Source: a virus
Virus record (IMG/VR): IMGVR_UViG_3300022682_000042
Coordinates: 1-64,000 of that record
Reading direction: 5' to 3' (one strand)
DNA length: 64,000 nt
Both the position numbers and the translations under genes were made by a program. Positions within the stretch are counted from its first letter, which is position 1. Each line of letters starts with the position of its first letter. The notes under the pieces were generated by a model. That model did no database searches. It was not told where the DNA came from and was given only the letters and a program-made list of their open reading frames with translations. Shown here piece after piece: positions 10,003 to 44,248 of this stretch.

Positions 10003-10929
10003 ATGGCTAGTCCAACGAGGCGTGATGTCCACGTAAATCGACCTTTGACTAACGTCTCAATTGCCTACAGCAACACTATGTACATTGCCGAGATGGTTTT
10101 TCCGACCATCCCGGTAGATAACCAGTCCGATGTCTATTTCACTTTTGACAAATCGAGCTGGTTCCGCAACCGGTCTGGCCCCAGGGCTCCCGGAACGAGA
10201 GCACCACGGGCAGACTACGGGATTGCCACGGCGTCCTATATCTGTATTTCAGATGCCCTGGCCAAACCCATCCCGGATGAAGTTCGGGACAACGCCGACT
10301 CCCCCCTTCGGCCCGAAGTAACGGCCACCCGGTTTGTGACCGATGGCCTGATGTTGGGGCTGGAAAAACGGGTGGCTGACCTGGTTTCCGGGTCCGGTAA
10401 CTGGGCGGCGGCCTCTAATCCGTCTACCCGGTGGGACGTTGATACCTCGGATGCCTGGGGAGACATCGATACCGTAGTTGATGCGGTTGTGCAACGCATT
10501 GGCCGGCACCCCAATACGATGTGTATGTCCTGGTCTGTCTGGAAGGCCCTGCGTAACCACCCGGACCTGCTAGATCGGGTCAAATATACCCGCCAGAACG
10601 GACGGGTTATGGCCGAGGATTTGGCAGCCTGGTTCGGTGTAGACAATGTTTACATCGGGGAGGCTATCTATGACAGTGCCCAGGAAGGGGCCACCGAGTC
10701 TCTAACCTATGTCTGGGGCGATATGCTCTGGGCCGGGTATGTCTCACCTAATGCGGCTATCGAAGAACCATCGGCCGGCTACTGTTTCCGGTGGGGGCAG
10801 CGTAGTATCAGTCGTTTTTACGAAGCTCAGGAGCACCAAACCATCATAGAGGGTGAGCACTATACCGATGAGGTGATTACGGCCTCAGACGCTGGAGCTT
10901 TGATGAGCGATTGCACTGGCGGTGCTTAG
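10003..10929 (+). CDS. Major capsid protein
   Basis: DVHVNRPLTNVSIAY N-terminus, PNTM..W.AL.NHP motif, size and position. Confidence 0.88.
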   Translation: MASPTRRDVHVNRPLTNVSIAYSNTMYIAEMVFPTIPVDNQSDVYFTFDKSSWFRNRSGPRAPGTRAPRADYGIATASYICISDALAKPIPDEVRDNADSPLRPEVTATRFVTDGLMLGLEKRVADLVSGSGNWAAASNPSTRWDVDTSDAWGDIDTVVDAVVQRIGRHPNTMCMSWSVWKALRNHPDLLDRVKYTRQNGRVMAEDLAAWFGVDNVYIGEAIYDSAQEGATESLTYVWGDMLWAGYVSPNAAIEEPSAGYCFRWGQRSISRFYEAQEHQTIIEGEHYTDEVITASDAGALMSDCTGGA

Positions 10930-10933
10930 TTCG

Positions 10934-11740
10934 TCAGGGAATTTGAATATCGTTAGCTTTTAATAAGTCCTCAAGTAGCCTAATCCGCTGCTTGAGGTTC
11001 TTATTTTCTTTTACAAGCTTAGATTCCCGTCTGATAGTTTCAGCATGCAGGATAGAGTGACTCGATTTGTCAAACACTTCGAGGTTCTCTATCCTGTTGT
11101 CTTGTTTATCCCCATTTACATGATGAACAGATTCACTTCGTTTTAATGGTCTTCCTAATTCCAGGGCTACTACTGCCCTATGTTCTAAGACATAACAATT
11201 TCCCACAGCCATTGATTTGAGAAGGCTCCACTCTTCATCGGTATAAGTTTGCCGATGACGGTAAACGTAATCATCTTGATTTCTGATTATCCGTTCATTA
11301 CTGCGTAAAGTGACCTTTCTATGTTTTCGGTAACATTTTTGACAACAACCAGTAAATTGTTTCAATCTTAAGGATGTCTTTAGATGATGAACATATTTCA
11401 AAAATTCGTCCTTACATCTAACACATTTGATTGGAACTTTTAGTCGGTCTTCCTGAGTGGTCAATCTTGACCAATAGATAATAGCTCCGGTCGAATGATG
11501 TTCATCCTCAGTTGGATTGTATTGTTTCGGGAAATATGATTGACCCTGATTAAATGTCTTAGGGCCAATATTCTTGATTTTATCCAATGTCTCCCGGTCA
11601 AATAGGTTGGGCCTACCCTTTCCAGCTATAGCACGAGCTACCGGGTTGACCTTTCCAACATTAACCCAGGTCTTAAATGTTCTGTAGTTTACCCCAATAT
11701 AGTCGGCCGCCTCTGGGGTTGTATATAGGCCATCAATCAT
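10934..11740 (-). CDS. HTH + HNH endonuclease
   Basis: [11 protein letters not shown]; [27 protein letters not shown]. Confidence 0.85.
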
Positions 11741-12536: not shown

Positions 12537-12911
12537 ATGCCTGATTTCAAAGTTCGACGTAAGATTTTGGCCACCGGTGGGATTGACATTACCGGGACGG
12601 CCTCCTTCTCCGGCCCAATTGCGGCCGGTTCTGCCGGGACTGCTTTTAATGATTTGCTTTACGGGTCTGGTTGTGTCAATTGCCCGTCGGCTACGGCCTC
12701 AACCGTAGTTGTCGGGACCGGTAGCTTGACTACCGGTTTTGCAGCCGGTGACCCTGTTTTCTTAACCCCCACTGCCAGCCTACAAGCTGGTATGGCTCTT
12801 ATTGGGGCCTGTTGTGTGTCCGGTTGTATTTCGGCCAGTTGGTTCTGTGTCGGTGGGGCTGATGTGTCGGCCTCAGCCGATGTGCATTGCCATTACCTGA
12901 TATTCAGTTAA
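12537..12911 (+). CDS. Putative virion protein
   Basis: Gly/Ser/Ala/Cys-rich; GAGGAG RBS; structural region. Confidence 0.55.
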   Translation: MPDFKVRRKILATGGIDITGTASFSGPIAAGSAGTAFNDLLYGSGCVNCPSATASTVVVGTGSLTTGFAAGDPVFLTPTASLQAGMALIGACCVSGCISASWFCVGGADVSASADVHCHYLIFS

Positions 12912-12922
12912 GGGGGCCAACT

Positions 12923-13150
12923 ATGAAACAGTTGGCCCAACACCTGGGGATAACTCAGGCCGAAGCTAAAAAACTGTGGGATTCTGTTGGCCTTGACGGT
13001 GACGAACAGGCCAGCCTGAAGGAAGTGTTCGGGCTGGCTGTCAAGGCTCCCCCTGATGGCCGGGTTTCGACCGGTAAGGTTGAGTCTGGCCTGGCTAAAT
13101 TTAAACCCCCACCCAAGCCCAAGTCCAAACGAAAGAAGGCGGCGAAATGA
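12923..13150 (+). CDS. Hypothetical protein with basic tail
   Basis: Coupled to next gene. Confidence 0.5.
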   Translation: MKQLAQHLGITQAEAKKLWDSVGLDGDEQASLKEVFGLAVKAPPDGRVSTGKVESGLAKFKPPPKPKSKRKKAAK

Positions 13151-17781: not shown

Positions 17782-18122
17782 TGACGAAAGTCACTCAAGA
17801 TTTCGAGTATTGGACCGGGGATGATAAAACTTTGATCTATACAATTACCGGGTCAGACTCCGGTAGTGTCAACATGGCCGGGGCTACCTGTGAATGGCTC
17901 CTACAGGATGAGTATGACTCCGGGTCTTTGTTAAAACTTGCTACCGGGGGTAGTGGGATTACTATCTCAGGCTGTACGGTCTCAGTTCAACTATCAGCCT
18001 CAGATACTATCGGCCAGACCTGGCAAGGGACTTATCATACCCAATTGGCGGCCTCGGACGCAGCCGGGAATGTAGCTGTATTGGCCGTTGGTACTGCCCG
18101 AATACACCGGCGGGCCTACTAA
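17778..18122 (+). CDS. BppU-N-like structural protein
   Basis: GDDKTL..V.LSASDT..G.Y pattern. Confidence 0.55.
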   Translation: MMTKVTQDFEYWTGDDKTLIYTITGSDSGSVNMAGATCEWLLQDEYDSGSLLKLATGGSGITISGCTVSVQLSASDTIGQTWQGTYHTQLAASDAAGNVAVLAVGTARIHRRAY

Positions 18123-18132
18123 GGAGGATATT

Positions 18133-18651
18133 ATGAGCTATTCAAGCCCTAGTGCCGTTGGGGCCTTATGTCGTAACCTATTAGGCGAGTTTGTGACCTG
18201 GACCGATAGCAGTTGCCCTACCCGGCAACAGGTAGACGGCTGGTTATCGTCCGGTTGTTCCATTATCGAGGCCCGTCTATCAGCCCTGGGTTACTCAGTC
18301 CCGGTCAGTCAGGGGACCAGGGCCTATGATTGGCTATCGGACCTCAATACCCTGTTTGGGGTCAGCCGGGCCGAGTTAAGCCGGACCACAGCCACTATCG
18401 GGCCGGGGGAAAGAAGCCGGGGAGAGCTATTTTCTGAAATGTTTTATGATGGCCTTGACAGGTTGGCCGATATTGACCTGTCCAGTATGGGGGTAAGCCG
18501 GGCCAGCCGGGGGGTGATGTATGCCGGGGGTATCTCAGTGGCCGACAAGCAAACTCAGGAGGCCGATACAGACCGGGTGAAACCACGTTATGAACGGGAT
18601 ATGTTTAGATTTCCGGGGGTCCAGGACCCAACCGGAGGAACGGCCAGTTAG
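18133..18651 (+). CDS. Head-tail adaptor-like protein
   Basis: MSY..V..L, I.ARL..GY.VP, YAGGIS motifs; position. Confidence 0.6.
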   Translation: MSYSSPSAVGALCRNLLGEFVTWTDSSCPTRQQVDGWLSSGCSIIEARLSALGYSVPVSQGTRAYDWLSDLNTLFGVSRAELSRTTATIGPGERSRGELFSEMFYDGLDRLADIDLSSMGVSRASRGVMYAGGISVADKQTQEADTDRVKPRYERDMFRFPGVQDPTGGTAS

Positions 18652-18660
18652 GAGGTTATT

Positions 18661-19440
18661 ATGACACAGTACAGAAGCTACAAAAAGCCAGAAGTGCCAT
18701 TTGGTATTATGGTTTCCGGTGGGTCTATTCCAGGCTGGTCCTATGTCCATAAATTCGGGCGAAATCCGGCTTGTGCTGCCGATACCAAAGAAATCATCTG
18801 GGACGGCTCCAGAGGAACCTATGAATGGCCTGACTCGGCCTGTACCCTGTCTATTCAATCTACTTCTGCCTGTGATGTAGCCACTACCGGGGCCGGGGCG
18901 CAAACGGTTAAAATCTATGGCCATAATGCCAGCCGGTCAGAAATATCTGAGACCGTATCTCTAAATGGGACAACGACCGTTAATTCGGCCTGCGCTTATA
19001 GTCGGGTATTTAGAATGGAGGTTACTCAGGCCGGGTCAGATATGCACAATCACGGCATTATATCGGCTTGTGCAAATAGCTATGGATTGGCCTATATTTC
19101 GGCTTCATACAATCAGACCTTGATGGCCCTATATTCTATTCCAGATGACCGGGAGGGATTTTTGGTTGATTGGTATGGGTCTGTCAATATTTCAAGTAAA
19201 ATTGCCGCTGAACGAGAGGCTGACCTAACTCTATGGATTCGTGGGGCCAGTTCAAATAATGCTTTTCAGATTAAGGACTTTATTGGCCTTAACTCTAATG
19301 GGGCCGGTCATGCTGAAATAGATTTTAACCCGAACCGTTATCTAGCTCCCGGTACAGACCTTTATATTTCAGCTTGCGCCCAGGATGCTGATACAGACAT
19401 ATCGGCCGGTTTTGACATTTACCTACATGATATAACGTAA
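18661..19440 (+). CDS. Putative virion protein
   Basis: HKFGRN..E.IW..GAGAQTV.I.G..E.V.LNG. Confidence 0.6.
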   Translation: MTQYRSYKKPEVPFGIMVSGGSIPGWSYVHKFGRNPACAADTKEIIWDGSRGTYEWPDSACTLSIQSTSACDVATTGAGAQTVKIYGHNASRSEISETVSLNGTTTVNSACAYSRVFRMEVTQAGSDMHNHGIISACANSYGLAYISASYNQTLMALYSIPDDREGFLVDWYGSVNISSKIAAEREADLTLWIRGASSNNAFQIKDFIGLNSNGAGHAEIDFNPNRYLAPGTDLYISACAQDADTDISAGFDIYLHDIT

Positions 19441-19444
19441 CCCC

Positions 19445-19473
19445 TTGCAGTCTGCCTCAAAATGTTGTATAGT
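19445..19473 (+). promoter_or_regulatory. Promoter for glycosyltransferase gene
   Basis: TTGCAG-17-TATAGT. Confidence 0.5.
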
Positions 19474-19555
19474 ATTTTTACAGATTACAACAGTTTGATA
19501 TGGGCCGGGGGTCCCTGGTCAGAAAAGGAAAACTACCTTGCAAAAGGAGAAGGAG

Positions 19556-20967
19556 GTGGGCCAGGGCAGTTCTATTCAAGCGTATAACGTTGTCTTCATT
19601 TATGCAGACAATCAGCATGAATGGAACTGCTCTAGTCCCAGTGGCGTAGTCTATCGCCATCAAGTGGTTTGAATCGGGCCGGCCAAGGCTGGTCTGGTAG
19701 ACTCATTCACGTTTCCGGATTCACCGAGTTCCTCAACCCCGTCATTCAAGACATTCTGATGCCGGCCGATGTGATTATCGTCCAACGTAATGTCATCCAT
19801 CCCAGGGTTTATGATGCTATGGCCTATTGGCAAGGGATGGGAAAACCGGTAGTGGTTGATCTGGATGACGCCTACCATTTTTTGCCCTGGTCCAATCCGG
19901 CCCGGCCTTTCTGGTTCCTGAAACCCCTGCCGGATGTAGACGGGGTAGAACGGGAAGGGGCCGGTATTAGGTTGCTTGAGGAAGGTCTGGTTAGAGCTGA
20001 CGGTCTGGTAGCCCCGAACAAGCTGTTGTTGGCCGATTGGGAGTATGCCAGCGGCAATAGTTATTTTATCCAGAATTATGCCGAGCCATCCTGGTGGGGA
20101 GTGCCACCCCCCGGCCCGTGGGTTCCATCCGGTCAACAACATTGGACCTGTAAAGATGATGACCGGCTCTGGCCCGTTAAGTGGTGGCGAGACAGAAACA
20201 GAACGGTCAGGGGCCTACCCCCCCGGTCTATCCTCAAGAAAGGATTGGGGATAAAAGATAGAATAGTTATTGGGTGGGGTGGGTCGATGTCCCACTATGA
20301 CAGTTTTTGGGGGAGTGGTCTAATGCAAGCCATCCCCAAAATATCGGCCCGATACCCCGAAGTCCTGTGGATGATCTGTGGGGGCGAGAAACGGCTTTAT
20401 GAACAGTTAGAGGTTCCGGCCCGACAAAAGTTCTGGCAACACGGCGTTCCTCCCCAACAATGGCCCGAAATAGTCTGCCGGTTTGACGTGGGCCTGGCCC
20501 CCCTGTATGGGCCTTATGACCAGCGTCGGTCCTGGATAAAAGGAATTGAGTATGCTCTGGCCGGAACCCCGTGGGTTGCTACCAGGGGCGAGACTTACAA
20601 GGGCCTGATAGACTGGCCTGCCGGCCTACAAGGGCCGGAAAGCGCCGAATGGTGGGAAGATAGCTTAGAGGTTATTCTGTCTGACCTTGAGGGCTGGCAG
20701 GATAAGGCCGAGGCCCTGTTACCGGAGGCCCGAAAGCGGTTCATTATTGACAATAACCTGGACAAATACAGTCAGGCTATTAACCAGATGATAGCCGATA
20801 AACAACAGGCCGGGCAGGGTGAGGTGGTTCTGCCGAACGTGATAAGGATACCAAAAAATGGCAAAAAGGAAAAGGAAGTCAGTCGGGACATCCCGACCGG
20901 AGAAATTATCAGTCTTGACGGCCCAGGCCCCAATGGGGTCAGAGAGGTTGAAATTAAAACCGGGTAA
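19556..20967 (+). CDS. GT-B glycosyltransferase, apparently frameshifted near the 5' end
   Basis: VVDLDD, IGWGGSMSH, DVGLAPL, RSWIKGIEY; RBS-led GTG at 19556 is out of frame with the body from 19636. Confidence 0.75.
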
Positions 20968-21165
20968 TGTGTTGATGTTGGCTGAGGAGGTTGGGGGTCA
21001 ATTGCCGACTATTGCCGGGGTTGAGGTAGGACGGGCTTTGACTTATGATTTGATACAATTTCTGAATAGGAATTGTTGACCGAAATAGGTTTGGTGATTA
21101 TCCGAATCATAAATTTGTACCCTATACAGCCAATATTCTTCGTGTCAATCTCTGTTGCTTAAGCC

Positions 21166-21268
21166 ATATAACGCCCGCCAATAAGCCGCGCCAACGGGAC
21201 TTGGTTTATAGTTGAGCCTTACAGCCAGAGGCACGTGTCTGGCGTCGGCTTTATTGGCTTTGTTAGGT
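21166..21268 (-). other. attC-like recombination site 4
   Basis: ACCTAAC...GTTATAT imperfect palindrome with extrahelical bases; upstream ORF stop lies inside R''. Confidence 0.8.
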
Positions 21269-21502
21269 TGCGTCTTGGCTATCTTGCATTGCCAGATACA
21301 GCCCTAGCACAACTTTGTCCATTACCATTTCAAGATCGGTTTGCGACCAGATTGCAAACCCTTTTTGCTTGTCAAAAATAGCCTGATTTATTTTGCGACG
21401 TTTTAATGGCTTACCTGTTCGCTTATTTAGACCGTAGTCAAAATCTTCCGTAAGGCACTTTAATATTTTTTTCTTTGCTAACCGTATATCTGATTTGTTC
21501 AT
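21263..21502 (-). CDS. Cassette 4 hypothetical protein
   Basis: Single ORF between attC sites. Confidence 0.7.
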   Translation of the reverse strand: MNKSDIRLAKKKILKCLTEDFDYGLNKRTGKPLKRRKINQAIFDKQKGFAIWSQTDLEMVMDKVVLGLYLAMQDSQDAT

Positions 21503-21506
21503 AGCA

Positions 21507-21592
21507 ACCTAACGCCCGCCAATGAGCGGCGGGCTACTGTGATTGTTTGTGATGGCCAGAATCAACCGTCCGCTCCATTGGCATTGTTGGGC
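21507..21592 (-). other. attC-like recombination site 3
   Basis: GCCCAAC...GTTAGGT; arms related to site 4. Confidence 0.8.
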
Positions 21593-21740
21593 GGATGCAT
21601 ACCGGATAGCAATGCTTCTGGTATGATGCGCCCTGAGCGTTTGGTTGAAAAAAATACATTTTCTGGCCTGCCTCGATAACCGCACCGCATTTGTCACAGG
21701 TCGTTATGTAATCGTTGACAACTGGCTCAAAATTAAACAA
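21534..21740 (-). CDS. Cassette 3 small zinc-finger-like protein
   Basis: CDKCG..HC..C; GAGGTGG RBS; reads into attC. Confidence 0.55.
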   Translation of the reverse strand: MFNFEPVVNDYITTCDKCGAVIEAGQKMYFFQPNAQGASYQKHCYPVCIRPTMPMERTVDSGHHKQSQ

Positions 21741-21760
21741 GTTCCACCTCTAAGCTATCC

Positions 21761-21886
21761 GCCTAACGATCTGAGTTGTGGCGATTGCGGGTTGGCTCCA
21801 CAACTATGATTTACAGAATATTTGCAGCCCCAACCGACCACAATTAAAAGCAAGATTAGCAATTCGCTACGAACGACTTGTTAGCT
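21761..21886 (-). other. attC-like recombination site 2
   Basis: AGCTAAC...GTTAGGC; ORF stop inside R''. Confidence 0.8.
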
Positions 21887-22114
21887 ACCGTGACGGCTGG
21901 CATAGACACGCAAACACCGCTTGCAGGCATTGGCTAACGGTACATTTATGGTCATCCGGTAGCCATTAGAATATTTTCCGCTGGTATCAAAACCACGTCC
22001 GCAAATTGGCGCACTAATATGTCCGGCTTCAATTAAATTTTGGCGGCTTTTACCTTCGCCAGCCTCATAAACCAAATGTAACTTTTGACCACCTTTGATT
22101 TGCATATAACGCAT
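21881..22114 (-). CDS. Cassette 2 small Cys/His protein
   Basis: GGAGG RBS; H..ICG..CKRC. Confidence 0.65.
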   Translation of the reverse strand: MRYMQIKGGQKLHLVYEAGEGKSRQNLIEAGHISAPICGRGFDTSGKYSNGYRMTINVPLANACKRCLRVYASRHGS

Positions 22115-22134
22115 TTTGGCCTCCAAAAGAAGGT

Positions 22135-22259
22135 AGCTAACTATTGAGTTGTGGCGATTGCGGGCCAGCACCGAACCGCAACATAATTGATAGATACGCT
22201 GGCAAGACTATTTCAAAAATCGCTGTGGTAGCAATTCGCCCACCAACGATTTGTTATTA
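22135..22259 (-). other. attC-like recombination site 1
   Basis: TAATAAC...GTTAGCT; arms related to site 2 (shared TGAGTTGTGGCGATTGCGGG). Confidence 0.75.
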
Positions 22260-22546
22260 CGGGGTTGGATTACAAAGCCGTATTTCTCTTGCCTCACCCG
22301 TTCTTTTTCAACCCAAAGGGCGCGGACATTAGCCACTTTCTGGTTATCAATTTCACCATCTGTAAATAATATCCCTTCGGGGTCATCGCGGTAATCCCAC
22401 ACCCCGCCAAGTTTAACTTCGCCTGTTTCTCTATCAAAAACAACTTCAAGGGCCAACCCTAACGGATGAAAGAACTGCCGGTTCGCCTCTTGCAAAAAAC
22501 CCTTCTCTTGAAATTCTTTTATGTTTATACGTTTGATTTCTGGCAT
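22208..22546 (-). CDS. Cassette 1 hypothetical protein
   Basis: GGAGG RBS; GFLQEANRQFFHPLGLALE..WDYRDDPEG. Confidence 0.7.
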   Translation of the reverse strand: MPEIKRINIKEFQEKGFLQEANRQFFHPLGLALEVVFDRETGEVKLGGVWDYRDDPEGILFTDGEIDNQKVANVRALWVEKERVRQEKYGFVIQPRNNKSLVGELLPQRFLK

Positions 22547-22636
22547 CTTGCCTCCGATCTTAAAACAAGTACATAACAATATTATAACATTACACCTTGC
22601 TTGATATTATACCCAACCTATGCTATAATGTCAAAT

Positions 22637-23299
22637 ATGAAACCATCAAATGAATTACAACAAAAATTGGACAGTGCCTTTGCCGGCCTGTCCAAGAATA
22701 CCGTCCGGCTTTACTCTCACTGGATTATTGAGTTGGCCAAATTCCACGCGCCGCTCAAACTATCCGAGCTTGAACAATGGTATATTGACCAGTTTTTGGC
22801 CTGGATGGTCCGGCCCGGTGAATACTCCCGATCTACTACCAATCAGGCCAAAAGGGCGATCCGTCTGTTTTATGAGTCGCTCGGCAGGCCGGTCAATGTA
22901 CAAATGGTATCGACCCGGCACAAATCCCGACCAGTCGATACCATCAGCCGGGAGCAGGTCAAGGAGGTTTTGTCCCGGTTGCCACTGCTGTACCAGATGC
23001 TGGCTGGCGACATTTACCACAACCTGACCCGACCCGGCGAGGTCGTCAAGCAGTCGAGGTCCAGGGGTGGATATACCGCCGTCTCTACCCTAACCAATCA
23101 CATCAAACAAGCCGGTAAGGAGGCCGGGATTATCAAGCCGGTAACAGCGATAACACTATATCAGTCCGGCATTGTTCATCGGCTTGAGGATAACGGACCG
23201 GTGGCAGTAATGGAACTAACAGGGCTAAAACCAAGTACAATTCAGAGGTACTTGAGACAGACTAAAAATAGTGATATAATAAATAAAAAGGGGTTTTAA
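22637..23299 (+). CDS. Degenerate integron-integrase-like protein (SAM-like N-domain intact, catalytic domain eroded)
   Basis: NT.RLY.HWI..FH..FL..SRSTTNQA..AI..FY; AGIIKPVT followed by ITLYQS in place of HTLRHS; leaderless after TGCTATAAT. Confidence 0.7.
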   Translation: MKPSNELQQKLDSAFAGLSKNTVRLYSHWIIELAKFHAPLKLSELEQWYIDQFLAWMVRPGEYSRSTTNQAKRAIRLFYESLGRPVNVQMVSTRHKSRPVDTISREQVKEVLSRLPLLYQMLAGDIYHNLTRPGEVVKQSRSRGGYTAVSTLTNHIKQAGKEAGIIKPVTAITLYQSGIVHRLEDNGPVAVMELTGLKPSTIQRYLRQTKNSDIINKKGF

Positions 23300-24468
23300 T
23301 GAAAACTATTGTAGTTAGCCATCAACCGACTTTTTTACCCATTATCCGGCAATTGTCTCAATTAGGATGGACCATTATCACCCTGACCCAACCCTATGCC
23401 CAGGAATTGGGCAATCAGGGAATTGAGGCCAAACCTCTGGGGGCCTTTGGGGGCGAAGGACAAGACTCGGCCTTTGCCTGGGCCGGGGCCTGTATCTCGG
23501 CCCTGTCCGGCCTGGAACTGAACGGGGCCGGGCCGGGGCCGATAGGTTGGCTCAGACAAAACTCAGTCCCCTTTTACTATCCCAGATTGGCCGACATGGG
23601 GATGATCGTTGTCTGTCTTGAAAATCTCAAGCCTGATTTGGTCTTGCTACATAATGATGTAGAACCGGCGACCAGGGCCGTAGCTCTGTGGGCCAAAACC
23701 AAGTCGGTTCCTTGTCTACACATCCCTCACGCTATTTACCAACTGGTCAACCGGGGGCCTCTAGGGACCGATGTCCACGACTTGGTAACGGCCTCGAATA
23801 TCGGGGTGGCCGGCCCTTTCCAGCGGGTCTGGTATGAGGCTTGTGGGGCTGAACCGGCTAATGTCAGGGAGACCGGCCTGCCTCAGTTCGATGGGTGGGC
23901 CACCCGGCAATCGGGGGACCAAAAGAAGGCCAAGAAATTGTTGGGCCTTGACCCAAACAGGCCGGTAGTAGCTTACGGGGGAACCTGGCCCCAGGGGACC
24001 AATGCCGGGGGCCTAAATGATGAATGGCAATTTGTCTACTTCTCTTTTCTTGAGGCAGCCAACCGGCTTGGCTTTCAGGCTGTAGTCAAATGTCATCCCA
24101 GGGGAGGAAAACAGAATTGGGACTGGCACGTGCAACAGGCAACCGAGGCCGGCCTGGATGGAGTTGTAACCCCATCTCACCTGGAACAAGTGATAGATGC
24201 CTCTGACCTATTTCTGGCCCCCTACGGCTCTAATGTATTGCTTGAGGCGGCCCATAATCCGGCCTGTCGACTGGCTACGACCCACGGCTATAAGGGAGAC
24301 AGGGCCGTGGAAAAAGTGCCGATAGACCCAGACGGGATGGCCGAGGCCCTGGGTAAATTATTGACCGAAGAACCCAGGCCAACCGGGACCTTGTTGGCCA
24401 AGTACCTGGGAGACCGGGATGGGTTAGCCTGGCAACGGGTAGTAGGGTATTGTGAGGAGTTGGCCTGA
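23299..24468 (+). CDS. GT-B fold glycosyl/glycerophosphotransferase-like protein
   Basis: HIPHA, ETGLPQFD, VVKCHPR, SNVLLEA motifs. Confidence 0.65.
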   Translation: MKTIVVSHQPTFLPIIRQLSQLGWTIITLTQPYAQELGNQGIEAKPLGAFGGEGQDSAFAWAGACISALSGLELNGAGPGPIGWLRQNSVPFYYPRLADMGMIVVCLENLKPDLVLLHNDVEPATRAVALWAKTKSVPCLHIPHAIYQLVNRGPLGTDVHDLVTASNIGVAGPFQRVWYEACGAEPANVRETGLPQFDGWATRQSGDQKKAKKLLGLDPNRPVVAYGGTWPQGTNAGGLNDEWQFVYFSFLEAANRLGFQAVVKCHPRGGKQNWDWHVQQATEAGLDGVVTPSHLEQVIDASDLFLAPYGSNVLLEAAHNPACRLATTHGYKGDRAVEKVPIDPDGMAEALGKLLTEEPRPTGTLLAKYLGDRDGLAWQRVVGYCEELA

Positions 24469-27311: not shown

Positions 27312-27532
27312 CGCTCAGGGTGATGGACGCCGGCAAGACTGGCGCTCCTCCACCCTGGGCCTTAGTCAAAGCCTGGTTGTGTCAGTTCTACGGCTGTACC
27401 CCCGGCCAACTGGCTCAGGAAGAGGCTGATGAAATTTTGCTACTTTATAATTTGAGTGGAACCTATGAAGAGTGGCGCAAGAAAAGGCCCGGTTTTGGTG
27501 GCAATAAACCCAAAATCAGGAGGCTCGAATAG
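27302..27532 (+). CDS. Tail chaperone -1 frameshift extension (GT)
   Basis: C CCA AAC slippery heptamer at 27302-27308 before the stop; -1 frame open to 27532. Confidence 0.75.
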   Translation, partial: PKLTLRVMDAGKTGAPPPWALVKAWLCQFYGCTPGQLAQEEADEILLLYNLSGTYEEWRKKRPGFGGNKPKIRRLE

Positions 27533-30459
27533 TGGCCCGTAATGTCACCATCAGGTTCATCGGTAAAGATGAACTATCCCCCGTTGCCCAAAAGATAGGT
27601 AACAATATGTCCGGCCTGGGCAAACAGCTTGGGTCGGCTTCTTCTGAGGCATCTTCATCGACCGGTATATTCTCTAAATTAGGGTCGGCCATTGGTGGTA
27701 TGGCTACTGTGGCCGGGGGGATTATTGCGGCCAATATTTTTGGCAATCTCGTTACTGGCTTAAAGGATTTTGCGGCGGCCGGCCTTCAGGCTGTCGGTGA
27801 AACCCAGATGCTTGAGCAACGGCTTAACTCCCTCTTTGCAGCTAACCTAATGTACGAACAACAAACAGTCACCACTACTGAGGCCATAACTAAATCAGCC
27901 GAAGCTATTGCCAAAGAACGGGAGGAGATGGAACGGAATGTGGCCAAGCGCGATACTCTGGCTGCCAAGATACAGGAACAACGTCAACGGGTTATAGACT
28001 TGACGGCAGCCTGGGGGGAACAGGGGTTGGCTACCAAAACAGCCCAGGCCAAACTTGGGGAGATGGAAGTTCAGTTATCCCAACTAGATGCCGAAATAGC
28101 CAGGGGGGTATCATCAGTTGATGATTTTGTAACTATCACCCAAACTCAATGGGTTCCTACCGGTAAAGATTTGGCTCAGACCCAGGCCGAAGCCAGGGTT
28201 GAGGCTGAAAAACTCCTCAAGGGTATTGAGGCCCTGGTCAAAGTTTCTCCCTTCCCTACAACTGAAATTCAGACTATCGGGGCCTACGGGGTTCAGATGG
28301 GGATGACAGCCGATGAGGCCCTGGAATTTACTACCACGATGACCAACTTGGGCCTGGCCCTGGGTCTACCAGCGCACGAAGTGGTCAGAATGTCTCAAAA
28401 CCTGAAACAGATGCAGGGGATGAGTAAACTAACTACTATTGATATGCGGGAGATGGAACGCCGGGGTTTTGATCTGGCCAAAGTCTTACAAATTGAAATG
28501 GGGATGTCGGTTGAGGAGTTTAATGCCGAACTTGCCCGGTCCCCGGAAAAGTTCAACGAGCTTATTTCAGCCATCAATACCTTTTCTCAAAACACATTCG
28601 GGGATGTTATTACCCAGATGAACCAAACCTTACCGGCCATGTATGGTCGGCTCAAGGATACGTTTGTTTTAGGGGCCAGAGACTTGTTACGGCCCATAGT
28701 CGAAGCTGTAACCCCGTTTGCCTCAGATTTTATAGATGAGTTCGATAGTCAAATGACTACCTTAATGCCTGCCATCGGGGAACAGATAGCCGGTTATCTG
28801 GTAACCGGCCTGCAACTAGGACAGACCGGTCAACTCGGACCAGCTATAGCTCAAATTCTATCTGACGGGTGGACTAACTATGTTTTGCCGGTCCTACAAA
28901 CCTGGACAGAGACATTTTTTCAGTGGGTAGTGACAACGGTTCAGGAATTACCTACTCAATTATCAACTTTGGTATCCGGTATTACCGAATATTTTTCCGG
29001 GTCCGGGGCCGAACTGCAAACCTCGGTTCATACCTGGGTCCAGGCATTTTGGTCCTGGGTACAGGAGGCCGGAGCGCAGTTAGGTCAGGTCTTGGGGGCC
29101 TTGTTAGGTCAGATATTCAATTGGGCCTCAAGTGGGGAAACCCAAACCCAACTTAACGAAATGGGCTTTGTTTTGGGACAACGGTTAGTAGATGGTTTGG
29201 CTCAATTAGTCGAGGACCAGGCGGCCCTAATTGATATTATGTCGAAATTGGTAGCCGGTTTGGGAATAGCAGTTGGGGCTATCGGTGGGGCCTTGATAAT
29301 GGTTGGGGGCCAGATTGTGGCCGGTATCATCTCCGGTATTCTGGAAAAATTGGGGGTAGACCTCAAGCCGGCCTTAGTTAGTGACCTGGGAAATATTTTT
29401 TCCGGTATGGCCGAAAACATTAAAATCATTGCCAAAGTCATCGGAACTAATATTGTCGAGGGCATCAAGACCGGGATAACCGATGCCAAAGACAAAGTAA
29501 CTACGGCCATAACTGACATAGCTACCGGGGCCTTGGATACCATCAAAGATGTTCTGGGTATTGGCAGTCCGGCCAAAGCCTTTATTGACATCGGCCTGAA
29601 TATTATGGAGGGGCTGGCCGGGGGTATTACTGAGAATATAGGCAAGGTTCTGGGAGCGCTTGGGTCAGTCGGTAAGTCTCTTCTGGGGGGCCTATTCGGG
29701 GGGGATGATGAAGGGTCAAGCCTGGACCTGGGGGACCTGTTAATGAACTTGGTAACCGGTATCCCGGAGGCCATAGAGAACCTAAAGATCGGCTTTACCG
29801 AACTGTGGACGATATTGAATGAACAAGTAGTTGGCCTGGTAATAGAACAGGCTCTTGTTCCCCTGGTAGCTTTATTAGTACAACTGTATACGGTCCATAT
29901 TCCTACCCTACAAACAGTTTGGACGGCAGCCAACGAAGCCATCACTTCATCGACGTTCCCGGTCCATGATGCCATCCGACTTATTATTACCTTATTGGGT
30001 CAAGCCTCACAAGCGGTCAAACAGTTGGCCCTGGATTTTAAGGCGGCTATGGATGACATTGCCGATTCGATGGAAGATGCCGCCGATGGTATTGGGGAAT
30101 TAGTAGACCGGATAGATGAGGCCACTGAGGCATTTAGGAAAATGGCCGAGGCAGCCAAGGAAGCGGCAGGGGCCTCGGAGGCTGCCGGGTCTACGGCCCC
30201 CGGTGGGGCCGGGTTCCAACACGGTACGGGCCTGTCAGGGTTCCGGGTTCCGGGGCCTGGGGGCCGGCCTTTCCCCTTGACGGTTCATGGCGGCGAGATG
30301 GTTGAGGTAATGCCGGCCGGGGCAGCCAGACAGGCCCGGCGGAGTGGGGATGGTGGGGGTAATACCTGGAATGTGACTATTAACGCTACGGAGTCGGTTG
30401 GGGGAGTTCAACATTCTTTGATGACGCTGATGGCGCTTGTTGGTTCCTCTTCTGGATGA
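27532..30459 (+). CDS. Tape measure protein
   Basis: 975 aa Ala/Gly-rich helical protein; LGIGSPAK, FQHG, VHGGEMV motifs. Confidence 0.9.
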   Translation: MARNVTIRFIGKDELSPVAQKIGNNMSGLGKQLGSASSEASSSTGIFSKLGSAIGGMATVAGGIIAANIFGNLVTGLKDFAAAGLQAVGETQMLEQRLNSLFAANLMYEQQTVTTTEAITKSAEAIAKEREEMERNVAKRDTLAAKIQEQRQRVIDLTAAWGEQGLATKTAQAKLGEMEVQLSQLDAEIARGVSSVDDFVTITQTQWVPTGKDLAQTQAEARVEAEKLLKGIEALVKVSPFPTTEIQTIGAYGVQMGMTADEALEFTTTMTNLGLALGLPAHEVVRMSQNLKQMQGMSKLTTIDMREMERRGFDLAKVLQIEMGMSVEEFNAELARSPEKFNELISAINTFSQNTFGDVITQMNQTLPAMYGRLKDTFVLGARDLLRPIVEAVTPFASDFIDEFDSQMTTLMPAIGEQIAGYLVTGLQLGQTGQLGPAIAQILSDGWTNYVLPVLQTWTETFFQWVVTTVQELPTQLSTLVSGITEYFSGSGAELQTSVHTWVQAFWSWVQEAGAQLGQVLGALLGQIFNWASSGETQTQLNEMGFVLGQRLVDGLAQLVEDQAALIDIMSKLVAGLGIAVGAIGGALIMVGGQIVAGIISGILEKLGVDLKPALVSDLGNIFSGMAENIKIIAKVIGTNIVEGIKTGITDAKDKVTTAITDIATGALDTIKDVLGIGSPAKAFIDIGLNIMEGLAGGITENIGKVLGALGSVGKSLLGGLFGGDDEGSSLDLGDLLMNLVTGIPEAIENLKIGFTELWTILNEQVVGLVIEQALVPLVALLVQLYTVHIPTLQTVWTAANEAITSSTFPVHDAIRLIITLLGQASQAVKQLALDFKAAMDDIADSMEDAADGIGELVDRIDEATEAFRKMAEAAKEAAGASEAAGSTAPGGAGFQHGTGLSGFRVPGPGGRPFPLTVHGGEMVEVMPAGAARQARRSGDGGGNTWNVTINATESVGGVQHSLMTLMALVGSSSG

Positions 30460-43367: not shown

Positions 43368-43520
43368 TATGTGGTGGCTAAAATACTCTGTACTAAATTG
43401 AATATTGATATGGGACAGGTGATGGCCGACAATATCGAGAAATTGCTTGTCAGGTATCCTAATGGCTACTCTTCAGATGATAGTCAAAACAGAATTGACG
43501 TTAAAAAGGAGAAAGTGTAA
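43368..43520 (+). pseudogene. C-terminal remnant of a MazG-like pyrophosphatase
   Basis: LCTKLNIDMGQVMADNIEKLLVRYPNGY..SQNRID without the N-terminal part. Confidence 0.5.
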
Positions 43521-44248
43521 TGGGGAAAAACAGTTCTATCGAGTGGACCGATTCAACTGTAAATTTTTGGCAAGGCTGCCAGAAGGTTAGCCCCGGCTGC
43601 AAAAACTGTTATATGTACCGGGACAAGAAACGGTATGGCCAAGACCCGGCCACAGTAGTCAGGTCTAGCCCGGCCACATTCAATAAACCGAAGAAGTGGA
43701 AAGACCCGGCCCTGGTCTTTACCTGTTCCTGGTCGGACTTTTTCATCGAACAGGCTGACCCCTGGCGGGATGAAGCCTGGGACATTATCAGGCAGACTCC
43801 TCATTTGACTTACCAGATTTTGACAAAGCGGCCCGAACTGGTCAAGGACCGGTTGCCCGATGATTGGGGCGAGGGGTGGCCCAATGTCTGGCTTGGGGTT
43901 AGTATTGAGACTGAGGATTATTACTGGCGGATTATGGCTATCGAGGATATTCCGGCAATGGTTAAATTTGTCAGCGCTGAACCCCTGTTAGGGCCATTAT
44001 CCAACCTGTACAGTTATTTCCCGGTTATTGATTGGGTAATTACCGGGGGGGAAAGCGGGCCAAAGTACAGGCCGGCCAACCTGGATTGGTTCCGGGAAAT
44101 TCGGGATGATTGCCAGAAGTGGGGAGTTCCGTTCTTCCATAAGCAACATGGAGGGAACCGGAAGGTCGATGGAGTCTGGGGAGGCCGGATGTTGGACGGG
44201 CGGGCCTGGGATGAGATGCCGGAAGTTAGAAGTCTTAAAAATACTTGA
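43520..44248 (+). CDS. Gp37/Gp68 (DUF5131) family protein
   Basis: SSIEWTD..GCQKVSPGCKNCY..LTKRP..WVITGGESG. Confidence 0.9.
   Translation: MGKNSSIEWTDSTVNFWQGCQKVSPGCKNCYMYRDKKRYGQDPATVVRSSPATFNKPKKWKDPALVFTCSWSDFFIEQADPWRDEAWDIIRQTPHLTYQILTKRPELVKDRLPDDWGEGWPNVWLGVSIETEDYYWRIMAIEDIPAMVKFVSAEPLLGPLSNLYSYFPVIDWVITGGESGPKYRPANLDWFREIRDDCQKWGVPFFHKQHGGNRKVDGVWGGRMLDGRAWDEMPEVRSLKNT

What the first reader, a model, noticed from the sequence alone, without database searches (positions are those of the whole stretch)
21166..22600. Integron-like cassette array inside a phage
Seen: four attC-like imperfect palindromes (103, 86, 126, 125 bp), each following one small minus-strand ORF, two with the stop codon inside R''. 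Each cassette's left R' complements its own R'': GTTAGCTACC/GGTAGCTAAC, GTTAGGCGGAT/ATCCGCCCAAC, GTTAGGTTGC/GCAACCTAAC. A candidate attI core GTTATAA lies at about 22582-22588, with an IntI-like gene divergent from the array. Established: this is integron cassette architecture, known mainly from chromosomes and plasmids. Inference: the phage collects accessory genes by attC recombination.
Basis: partly seen in the sequence, partly recalled or inferred. Interest (0 to 1): 0.8.

Follow-up and report, generated by a model that had tools for sequence, protein, structure and literature searches.

The report
Phage integron with a dead integrase
A complete bacteriophage genome carries a true integron-style row of four swappable gene cassettes behind a strong promoter and a docking site, but the integrase-like gene at its head is a shortened relative that has lost the catalytic residues, so the phage probably depends on its host's integrase.

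Summary
Four attC-type sites lie at 22259-22135, 21886-21761, 21592-21507 and 21268-21166 (minus strand). Each closes one small gene. A covariance model built only from 27 sites of four other phage records finds exactly these four in the whole 82.5-kb genome (E 1e-16 to 9e-6; next best 1.8).

Across five phage records, the 8 bases after GTT at a cassette's start complement the 8 bases before AAC at its end: 7.2 of 8 on average in 20 adjacent pairs, against 4.15 for all pairs. This marks cassettes inserted at G|TT.

The window lies in a phage. The "IntI-like" gene (22637-23299) gives a 220-aa protein that lacks about 107 residues of IntI4 and has no HxxR. It belongs to a distinct family of about 183-236 aa (16 representatives) under purifying selection (dN/dS 0.12).

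Two complete phages (G004, G002) have the same module of short gene, consensus promoter and attI, with different cassettes. No record has a PF00589 domain (0 of 5). Matching attC sites and true IntI genes occur in Chloroflexota genomes.

Integrons and CALINs in phages are published (Qi et al. 2023). The dead-integrase platform was not found in print. Earlier notes of this scan saw it on other DNA.

The parts
22637..23299 (+). Short IntI-derived gene (220 aa from ATG 22637; an upstream ATG at 22628 gives 223 aa). It has the N-terminal SAM-like core-binding domain and a reduced C-terminal domain without the catalytic Arg-His-Arg set. The C-terminal Tyr is kept.
   Evidence: PF13495 53 bits; TIGR02249 51 bits against a 265-bit cut-off, positions 12-127 of 315 only. 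Best PDB match is IntI4 2a3v; H267/R270 align to I/Y. The family profile skips IntI4 131-237. dN/dS 0.12 against G004. The Atlas model's best structural neighbour is a 'putative integron integrase' cluster, TM 0.83 by query.
22606..22634 (-). Cassette promoter (Pc-like): TTGACA, 17 nt, TATAAT, facing the array.
   Evidence: 12 of 12 consensus matches. Both hexamers are invariant in G004 and G002.
22601..22629 (+). Promoter for the short gene. It overlaps the cassette promoter almost base for base and has an extended -10. It would start transcription at or next to ATG 22637, giving a leaderless mRNA.
   Evidence: 11 of 12 matches, with TG before the -10. The leaderless start is inferred from the spacing.
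22571..22590 (-). attI. The conserved block ends in ATATTG|TTA. The crossover lies between G 22577 and T 22576.
   Evidence: Identity among the three platforms stops right after GTTA (A9). In G004 and G002, the 8 bases after GTT match the reverse complement of the first cassette's R'' flank at 7 of 8. In this window they match only partly, with a one-base offset.
22141..22576 (-). Cassette 1: ORF 22546-22208 (112 aa, good Shine-Dalgarno sequence) plus attC 22259-22135 (type A).
   Evidence: R3 E 5.1e-12. R2, which did not include this site, gives E 8.3e-5. The protein matches phrog_3954 (unknown function, E 6e-12) and has 1264 unnamed homologues.
21767..22140 (-). Cassette 2: ORF 22114-21881 (77 aa) plus attC 21886-21761 (type A). 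The stop lies inside R''.
   Evidence: R3 E 1.4e-16. R1, which did not include this site, gives E 0.0069. The cassette's start and end 10-mers are perfectly complementary. 307 unnamed homologues.
21513..21766 (-). Cassette 3: ORF 21740-21534 (68 aa, TTG start, Cys-rich) plus attC 21592-21507 (type B).
   Evidence: R3 E 8.8e-6. DNA fold z -2.3 (top strand) and -2.8 (bottom strand). The cassette ends are complementary at 10 of 11.
21172..21512 (-). Cassette 4: ORF 21502-21263 (79 aa) plus attC 21268-21166 (type B). The stop lies inside R''.
   Evidence: R3 E 9.8e-10. DNA fold z -2.2 and -3.0. The cassette ends are perfectly complementary over 10 nt.
20968..21171 (-). About 200 nt without a gene after the last G|TT. 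It begins with the same 11-nt R' extension as a cassette of G004 and one of G003, so it is probably the remnant of a further cassette or of the original insertion point.
   Evidence: Read. Not tested further.

Best explanation
This is a phage-borne integron platform whose own integrase has been reduced to a protein that cannot cut DNA.

Shown: four promoterless one-gene cassettes, each closed by an attC-type folded site, lie downstream of a consensus sigma-70 promoter and a conserved attI. Each cassette's two ends form the two halves of one attC. This is the mark left by insertion of a circular cassette at G|TT. The same module (short gene, promoter, attI) heads different arrays in two other complete phage genomes.

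[quoted passage not shown] Genomes of that phylum hold true IntI genes and attC sites of the same sequence type.

Inferred, weaker: the short protein keeps the DNA-binding parts of IntI. It acts at attI and at the two overlapping promoters as a non-cleaving partner or docking factor for the host enzyme, as a switch between the two divergent promoters, or as both.

The cassettes supply small accessory genes to the phage. The one cassette with a name, in G002, is Mom-like, which is an anti-restriction DNA modification function.
For: 1. attC sites. R3, built without any window site, finds exactly four sites in the 82.5-kb genome. R1, built from 11 sites, finds 26 sites in 344 kb on both strands, and R2 finds 34. 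All lie in or beside arrays and on the array's strand.

2. Structure rather than sequence is conserved. All 11 pairs of the inner L-box helix show compensatory changes. 108 cells changed on both sides, against 50.6 +/- 5.6 in shuffles, with 0 of 500 shuffles reaching the observed value. Sliding the partners by 1-3 columns drops pairing from 76.5% to 32-38% (the alignment was fitted to the model).

3. The extra unpaired bases lie on the R''-L'' arm.

4. Cassette-end complementarity is 7.2 of 8 in 20 adjacent pairs, against 3.75 of 8 within one site and 4.15 of 8 for all pairs. 0 of 100,000 resamples reach it.

5. The platform is conserved in G004 (76% nt identity) and G002 (35% aa identity), and identity stops at ATATTGTTA.

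6. One cassette is shared by G002 and G004 at 86% over 437 nt, in different array positions.

7. The short family has 16 representatives of 183-236 aa that match the whole profile. After them come recombinases of roughly 260-640 aa that match the N-terminal part only. The Arg I, HxxR and His III positions are not conserved, while the Tyr is kept in at least 90%. dN/dS is 0.12 in both halves.

8. No PF00589 match in any of the 5 phage records, while the control rings in 14 of 14 genomes.

9. Hosts. The type-A 19-mer hits 16 genome loci, 12 of them titled as Chloroflexota lineages. 3 of the 5 genomes tested have IntI above the curated cut-off. The phage-built model R1 finds sites 3-5 kb from intI on the opposite strand in G005 and G006. 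There are arrays of 2-4 sites in MAG contigs.

10. The first cassette of G002 is Mom-like: PF25680, 45 bits against a 27.1-bit cut-off.
Against: No recombination was observed. No sequencing run was listed for the locus, so there is no direct sign of excision or of circular cassettes.

The curated IntegronFinder attC model was not available. Membership of attC rests on my own models and on hand-checked features.

The host assignment rests on attC sequence type alone. 4 of the 16 19-mer loci are titled as other phyla, and MAG bins can hold phage contigs.

The window's own attI junction fits the first cassette's R'' only with a one-base offset.

The family keeps the C-terminal Tyr, and this window's protein has an R-x-x-E where box I is expected. 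An unusual catalytic activity is therefore not excluded.

Genomic context is known for only 3 family members: the window's own protein, G004's (representative P0003) and G002's (P0013).

The role proposed for the short protein is inference only.
Confidence: 0.6

Rival explanations
1. Fossil array. A piece of a bacterial chromosomal integron was once captured by a phage and is now inert cargo. The short gene survives because it was taken over for another job, such as a transcription regulator of the divergent promoters, and cassettes no longer move.
For: There is no catalytic recombinase in any of the five records. The short protein lacks the catalytic set. Qi et al. 2023 describe phages that picked up fragments of chromosomal integrons (PMC9892861, section 9 part 1). 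No polymorphism data were obtained.
Against: Three distantly related phage backbones carry the homologous platform with wholly different arrays. Their tail proteins are 23-33% identical or show no match at all. Platform identity stops exactly at the attI crossover. A cassette is shared between two arrays in different positions. Cassette ends remain 7.2 of 8 complementary, which argues against long decay. Further CALINs lie at other places in G001, G002 and G003.
Confidence: 0.2
2. The short protein is itself the recombinase. It would be a minimal tyrosine recombinase with a non-canonical active site that moves the cassettes without host help.
For: The Tyr that aligns with IntI4 Y302 is kept in at least 90% of 20 family members. 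Both halves are under purifying selection. The Atlas model superposes on integron integrases over 216 residues. This window's protein has R-P-G-E at the box I position. Earlier notes of this scan report phage cassette arrays run by short recombinases.
Against: The box I Arg is present in only a few members, and most have Pro there. The HxxR His and Arg positions vary freely (Y, H, R, Q, F). The His III position is Leu or another residue. The stretch that holds the catalytic Lys hairpin and the IntI-specific insert, IntI4 131-237, is absent. PF00589 does not match.
Confidence: 0.12
3. The palindromes are not recombination sites. They would be terminators or REP-like repeats that happen to follow small genes.
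For: attC sites 1 and 2 do not fold better than shuffles as free single strands (z -0.1 to -1.6). One terminator-like hit lies inside attC 2.
Against: The invariant TAAC...GTTA cores, the covarying L box and the bulged bases on one arm. Cassette-end complementarity. The same site class lies next to true intI genes in bacteria. A conserved attI junction.
Confidence: 0.02

Closest known systems
Integrons and CALINs in bacteriophage genomes (Qi, Rajabal, Ghaly, Tetu, Gillings 2023, Front Microbiol, PMC9892861; sections 9 part 1 and 13 read)
   Same: attC-bounded cassettes inside phage genomes, virulent ones included. The cassettes point the same way. Anti-restriction cargo is suggested: DNA methyltransferases in that study, a Mom-like gene in G002 here. 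The idea that a bacterial IntI acts on phage-borne attC sites was shown there with IntI1.
   Different: That screen of 10,705 phage genomes reported 3 complete integrons with full IntI, mostly pieces of host chromosomal integrons or class 1 integrons. It also reported 1 In0 and 17 CALINs without any integrase. In what I read there was no conserved phage-specific platform with an attI, a consensus promoter and a shortened non-catalytic IntI relative.
Sedentary chromosomal integrons (for example the Vibrio cholerae superintegron; IntI4/VchIntIA, PDB 2a3v)
   Same: Divergent intI-type gene, Pc, attI, and arrays of small unnamed genes. The attC sites fall into sequence families shared within a lineage: type A recurs in phages and in Chloroflexota MAGs. 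The cassette ends are circularly permuted.
   Different: The head gene lacks about 107 residues of IntI4, including the stretch with the catalytic Lys and the IntI-specific insert, and it lacks HxxR. The arrays are short (4 to about 10 cassettes) and lie in virus genomes.
CALIN, clusters of attC sites lacking an integron integrase (Cury et al. 2016, NAR, PMC4889954; passages read)
   Same: By that paper's operational rule an IntI must match both PF00589 and the intI_Cterm profile. Under it this element has at least 2 attC sites and no IntI, so it would be reported as a CALIN. That paper also proposes that CALIN cassettes can be moved by an integrase encoded elsewhere.
   Different: This element has an attI, a Pc and a conserved IntI-derived gene under selection. 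It is not just a decayed pseudogene: that paper found intI pseudogenes near only 15 of 279 CALINs.
CTX phage integration by host XerC/XerD on a folded single-stranded site
   Same: A phage without its own active recombinase uses a host tyrosine recombinase on a folded single-strand DNA site.
   Different: That system integrates a whole phage genome at dif. It has no cassettes, no attI platform and no phage-encoded dead paralogue.

Membership tests
Integron integrase (IntI) | Tyrosine recombinase catalytic domain (PF00589) with the R-K-H-R-H-Y set | tested here: not met
   The protein has no PF00589 hit, and none of the 5 phage records has one, while the control rings in 14 of 14 genomes. IntI4 H267 and R270 align to I and Y. 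Across 20 family members only the Tyr is kept.
Integron integrase (IntI) | IntI-specific additional domain (the intI_Cterm profile of IntegronFinder) and a score above the TIGR02249 cut-off | tested here: not met
   TIGR02249 scores 51 bits against a 265-bit cut-off and covers positions 12-127 of 315 only. IntI4 residues 131-237 have no counterpart. The intI_Cterm profile itself was not available.
Integron integrase (IntI) | N-terminal SAM-like core-binding domain closest to IntI among recombinases | tested here: met
   PF13495 scores 53 bits. The best NCBIfam match is the integron integrase model. The best PDB match is IntI4, at E 3.5e-16 with the family profile. The best structural neighbour is a 'putative integron integrase' cluster.
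attC recombination site | Inverse core ending in AAC (R'') and core GTT-purine-rich (R'), 57-141 nt apart | tested here: met
   The four sites read ..TAAC or ..CAAC at one end and GTTAG.. or GTTAT.. at the other, and are 86-126 nt long. TAAC and GTTA are kept in 23-26 of 26 aligned sites. The consensus motif and the length range are recalled from the literature.
attC recombination site | L''/L' helix conserved in structure rather than sequence, with extra unpaired bases on the R''-L'' arm and an unpaired central spacer | tested here: met
   All 11 inner L-box pairs show compensatory changes, and 0 of 500 shuffles reach the observed covariation. The bulged positions lie on the 5' arm in the models and alignments. 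The spacers between the R and L boxes do not pair.
attC recombination site | Passes the curated attC covariance model of IntegronFinder or HattCI | not testable with these tools
   The model is not in Rfam (0 matches in the window) and not on hand. My own models, built from phage sites, also find sites beside true intI genes in bacteria.
attC recombination site | Recombined by an IntI | not testable with these tools
   This needs an assay. The indirect trace is the cassette-end complementarity of 7.2 of 8 in 20 pairs.
Integron platform | attI next to the integrase gene, with cassettes inserted at its G|TT | tested here: met
   Identity among the three platforms ends at ATATTG|TTA. In G004 and G002 the first cassette's start matches its own R'' flank at 7 of 8. 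In this window the fit is only partial.
Integron platform | Promoter (Pc) upstream of attI that drives promoterless cassettes | tested here: met
   12 of 12 consensus at 22634-22606 on the array's strand, conserved in all three platforms. Inside the array the scan lists one weaker site on the array's strand (9 of 12, within cassette 1) and one more in the gene-free stretch after the last attC. Expression itself was not tested.
CALIN | Two or more attC sites within 4 kb and no IntI nearby (Cury et al. 2016) | tested here: met
   Four sites within 1.1 kb, and no protein that meets the IntI rule.

The most novel reading that the evidence does not exclude
The short protein is a phage-evolved adaptor. 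It is a catalytically dead IntI paralogue that sits on the phage attI and takes the non-cleaving places in a mixed synapse with the infected cell's own IntI. In that way a phage with no recombinase of its own can load or swap cassettes from the host's cassette pool, or from co-infecting phages, within an infection. Its binding would also flip the two superimposed divergent promoters. This would be an integron split between a virus (platform) and a cell (enzyme).
Probability: 0.3. Interest if true: 0.85.

Novelty: new variant of a known kind. Interest (0 to 1): 0.7.

Why it matters
Integrons are seen as bacterial devices, and in phages they have been reported as rare stowaways. Here the platform itself looks adapted to life in phages. 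It is conserved across unrelated phage backbones, stocked with small phage-type genes, and headed by an integrase relative that selection keeps intact although it cannot cut DNA by the known chemistry.

If the host enzyme does the work, three things follow. Phages can draw on, and feed, the host's cassette pool. Counter-defence genes could spread as cassettes. And there is a natural case of a dead tyrosine recombinase working with a live one.

It also shows a blind spot in integron finders. By their rules this element is only a CALIN.

Tried and rejected
Rfam gave no match in the window, and no tRNA gene was found.

The heuristic hairpin scans of my own were noisy, with many background hits. 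I used them only to locate candidates, and the counts come from the covariance models.

Free-strand folding supports sites 3 and 4 (z -2.2 to -3.0). It does not support sites 1 and 2 (z -0.1 to -1.6), whose three bulges make the stem weak without protein.

The search for the short protein in viral contigs with the single sequence found nothing. With alignments A3 and A7 it found only G004. Two metagenome scans found nothing.

In 401 sampled Chloroflexota genomes only N-terminal matches appeared, almost all in frames of about 240-420 aa. There was no full-length match to the short family. This means 'not found in those searched'.

The regions upstream of the host intI genes (L041-L043) gave no attI to compare. 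They hold other genes or masked N.

Cassette proteins 3 and 4 have no family hit in Pfam, NCBIfam or PHROGs, apart from chance-level hits. Cassettes 1 and 2 belong to large unnamed families, so the cargo's function stays unknown.

For sequencing runs that hold the locus, none was listed.

Literature. Searches found Qi et al. 2023 as the only paper on integrons in phage genomes. None describes a shortened non-catalytic IntI family in phages. I considered and rejected the idea that the array lies in host DNA flanking a prophage: it lies between virion genes, and G002 and G004 have terminal repeats.
Full report
**What the window is.** The window is bases 1-64000 of an 82,541-base IMG/VR virus record. 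The record is classed as 'linear' and CheckV rates it 100% complete. Nearly all long ORFs are on the plus strand. PHROG matches include a tape measure (27532-30459), Dit, a minor tail protein, a portal (62133-) and a head protease region. The finding lies between virion genes, in a stretch of lower G+C (0.45 against about 0.54 in the flanks). This stretch is read on the opposite strand.

**The observation.** On the minus strand the region reads as follows. First comes a divergent gene (22637-23299, plus strand), then an intergenic region, then four small ORFs. The ORFs are 22546-22208 (112 aa), 22114-21881 (77 aa), 21740-21534 (68 aa) and 21502-21263 (79 aa).

- Each ORF is followed by or overlaps an imperfect palindrome, at 22259-22135, 21886-21761, 21592-21507 and 21268-21166.
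- Each palindrome starts with ..TAAC or ..CAAC and ends with GTTAG.. or GTTAT...
- The stops of ORFs 2 and 4 lie inside the first heptamer.
- Sites 1 and 2 share one sequence type (A). Sites 3 and 4 share another (B).

**Are they more than chance?** I built three covariance models.

- R1 came from 11 type-B sites of four phage records. It found 26 full-length hits at E up to 1 in 344,054 bases on both strands. All lie inside cassette arrays and on the array's strand. 15 of them were not in the training set, type-A sites included.
- R2 came from those 26 sites. It found 34 hits, including window site 1 (E 8.3e-5), which was not in its training set.
- R3 came only from 27 sites of the four other records. 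The next best hit had E 1.8. The R3 alignment was produced with R2, so it is not wholly blind to the window, but none of its sequences comes from the window.

**Structure rather than sequence.** On the 26-site alignment all 11 pairs of the inner L-box helix change on both sides while staying paired. There are 108 compensatory cells against 50.6 +/- 5.6 in shuffles, and 0 of 500 shuffles reach the observed value. Sliding the partners by 1-3 columns drops pairing from 76.5% to 32-38%. The alignment was fitted to the model, which favours it.

The TAAC and GTTA cores are almost invariant. The three outermost R-box pairs are mostly unpaired within a site (11, 15 and 17 of 26 not paired). This is expected if the bases after G|TT belong to the next cassette. 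The unpaired extra bases lie on the R''-L'' arm. To my recollection, that is the arm that bears them in canonical attC sites.

**The mark of cassette insertion.** I took 28 sites in six arrays of five phage records. I compared the 8 bases after GTT of one site with the 8 bases before AAC of the next site. The first stretch is the start of a cassette and the second is the end of the same cassette.

| Comparison | Complementary bases of 8 |
|---|---|
| 20 adjacent pairs (cassette start against its own end) | 7.2 on average (range 6-8) |
| Both ends of one site | 3.75 |
| All 784 pairs | 4.15 |

0 of 100,000 resamples reach 7.2. Two non-adjacent G003 pairs were left out. Unusual cores are matched too: in G001 a GTTCTGC core is answered by GCAGAAC. 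Each cassette therefore carries the two halves of one attC, as a circular cassette inserted at G|TT would.

**Related platforms.** The 19-base core of type A occurs in four other IMG/VR records. G002 (83,420 bp) and G004 (70,303 bp) have direct terminal repeats and are rated complete. Both carry the same head module.

- G004 has a 218-aa homologue (76% identical in protein, 76% in DNA). It has the same TTGACA-17-TATAAT promoter and the same attI, followed by at least nine cassettes.
- G002 has a homologue of about 204 aa (35% identical), with the same promoter hexamers and attI, followed by four cassettes.
- Aligned, the three regions are identical through ATATTGTTA and unrelated after it.
- In G004 and G002 the bases after that GTT match the reverse complement of the first cassette's R'' flank at 7 of 8. 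In this window they match only with a one-base offset.

The backbones are far apart. G000 and G004 share 9 ORF matches, with tail proteins at 23-33% identity. G000 and G002 share 3. The arrays differ completely, except that one cassette is shared by G002 (last of 4) and G004 (second) at 86% over 437 nt, and the match spans that cassette with its attC. G001 and G003 have arrays without the head module, and G002 has a second two-site cluster.

**The gene at the head.** It matches the N-terminal SAM-like domain: PF13495 at 53 bits, and TIGR02249 'integron integrase' at 51 bits against a 265-bit cut-off, positions 12-127 of 315. It has no PF00589 match.

- The best PDB relative is IntI4 of Vibrio cholerae (2a3v). 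Residues 19-120 align to IntI4 19-123 and residues 150-192 to IntI4 245-287. IntI4 H267 and R270 face I and Y.
- A profile of the family matches IntI4 at E 3.5e-16 (XerA 6.8e-14). It leaves out IntI4 131-237, and the C-terminal Tyr aligns with Y302.
- An exhaustive profile search of 1.84 billion representatives gave 98 hits at E up to 0.001. The first 16 (P0003-P0018, 183-236 aa) match the profile end to end, at E 3e-134 to 6.5e-10. Among the later hits are recombinases of about 260-640 aa that match the N-terminal part only, from E 1.4e-8.
- In the 20-member alignment the positions of Arg I, the HxxR His and Arg, and His III are not conserved. The Tyr is kept in at least 90%.
- dN/dS between this window and G004 is 0.12 overall, 0.115 in the N-terminal half and 0.105 in the C-terminal half. 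This is a working gene, not a pseudogene.
- The Atlas's own model (pLDDT 0.82) superposes best on a 'putative integron integrase' cluster, TM 0.83 by query over 216 residues.
- In 401 sampled Chloroflexota genomes only N-terminal matches were found, almost all in frames of about 240-420 aa, and the short form did not appear.

None of the five phage records has a PF00589 match, while the control rings in 14 of 14 genomes.

**Promoters.** A 12-of-12 consensus promoter on the minus strand (22634-22606) faces the cassettes. An 11-of-12 promoter with an extended -10 on the plus strand (22601-22629) faces the short gene and overlaps the first almost base for base. It would give a leaderless mRNA at ATG 22637 (the start point is inferred). 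Two RNA polymerases could hardly occupy both promoters at once. A protein bound at attI, next to them, could set the balance. This last point is inference.

**Hosts.** The type-A 19-mer hits 16 loci in the species-level genome collection. 12 are titled as Chloroflexota lineages (Caldilineaceae, Anaerolineales or Anaerolineae, Promineifilaceae, 'Chloroflexia'). 4 are titled otherwise: Puia, a Proteobacteria MAG, a Pseudomonadales MAG and Variovorax.

- The whole attC is 72-87% identical between phages and these loci. One G003 cassette is 86% identical over 407 nt to a Caldilineaceae MAG contig. That contig could itself be viral.
- Of the five host genomes tested, three have an IntI above the curated cut-off.
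- The phage-built model R1 finds sites in two of three genomes. These include sites 3-5 kb from intI on the opposite strand in G005 and G006, which is the canonical layout.
- R3 finds 28 sites in the host loci, in same-strand groups of 2-4.

**Cargo.** Cassette 1 matches phrog_3954 (unknown function, E 6e-12) and has 1264 unnamed homologues of about 100 aa. Its last 15 or so residues are encoded by the attC. Cassette 2 has 307 unnamed homologues. Cassettes 3 and 4 have no family. In G002 the first cassette is Mom-like (PF25680, 45 bits against a 27.1-bit cut-off). Mom is an anti-restriction DNA modification function of phage Mu; that role is recalled, not checked here.

**How it most likely works.**

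- Shown: the anatomy, the site class, the insertion mark, the conserved platform with varying arrays, and the loss of the catalytic set under purifying selection.
- Inferred: cassettes are moved by the infected cell's IntI. This rests on the lack of any phage recombinase domain, the shared attC types and the true IntI genes in the likely hosts.
- Inferred, weaker: the short protein binds attI and the promoter region as a non-cleaving partner, a docking factor or a switch.

Rivals are an inert captured fossil with a re-used regulator (0.2), a minimal active recombinase (0.12), and non-recombination palindromes (0.02).

**Comparison with what is known.** Qi et al. 2023 screened 10,705 phage genomes. 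They found 3 complete integrons, 1 In0 and 17 CALINs, and showed that five of six attC sites from virulent phages recombine with attI1 under IntI1 (PMC9892861, sections 9 part 1 and 13 read). Integron parts in phages are therefore known.

By the rules of Cury et al. 2016 (PMC4889954, passages read) this element is a CALIN. I did not find in print a conserved phage platform headed by a shortened, non-catalytic IntI relative (searches; supplements closed).

Earlier notes of this scan describe the same dead short protein on other DNA (e1-3643608, e1-6107120, e1-2912230) and on this genome (e1-6122163, e1-6122159). My analysis reached the same reading before I saw them, and the checks here are my own.

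**Limits.** There was no assay, no population data, no curated attC model and no structure prediction. The host assignment is indirect.

Noticed in passing
window 6646-7965 (-): A 439-aa transposase-type ORF (phrog_506, E 3e-105) in a low-G+C island of the phage. Other notes of this scan treat it as a TnpB with flanking arrays.
   Followed up: no
window 19669-20967 (+) and 23299-24468 (+): Two weak glycosyltransferase-like ORFs (PF13692 E 2e-4; PF13439 and PF04464 about 6e-3) flank the integron module inside the virion-gene block. The second starts at the stop of the short IntI-like gene, so the start and stop overlap.
   Followed up: no
L020 (G004) 12700-12999 (-): Next to G004's short IntI-like gene lies a 99-aa ORF made almost wholly of Gly-Asp-Gly-Tyr-Gly-Ser repeats. 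A mirror Arg/Ser-rich ORF lies on the other strand.
   Followed up: no
window 43520-44214 and G000 70487-71196 (L008 6487-7196): G000 and G004 have distant backbones, yet they share two further stretches at 72% and 92% DNA identity. This is a sign of module exchange between these phages beyond the integron platform.
   Followed up: no
L017 (G003) about 10250-11100 and L024 6490-7140: A cassette of phage record G003 is 86-88% identical in DNA to part of a 7.3-kb contig binned in a Caldilineaceae MAG. Either cassettes are shared between phage and host, or the contig is viral.
   Followed up: partly
L015 (G002) 6938-7488 = G002 66938-67488: There is a second, two-site attC cluster in G002, 55 kb from its platform and without any head module. 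Single attC sites also lie in G001 at 7179-7300 and 17983-18105. Cassettes therefore also sit at secondary places in these phages.
   Followed up: partly
L041 and L043 (host genomes G005, G006), upstream of intI: In both Chloroflexota genomes, a 390-400-aa Cys-rich ORF on the strand opposite to intI lies beside the true intI, where cassettes would be expected. It may be an inserted mobile element. It was not identified.
   Followed up: no
L020 (G004) 18297-19493 (+): Just past the end of G004's array lies a 398-aa ORF with several repeated helix-turn-helix-like segments. Its function was not examined.
   Followed up: no
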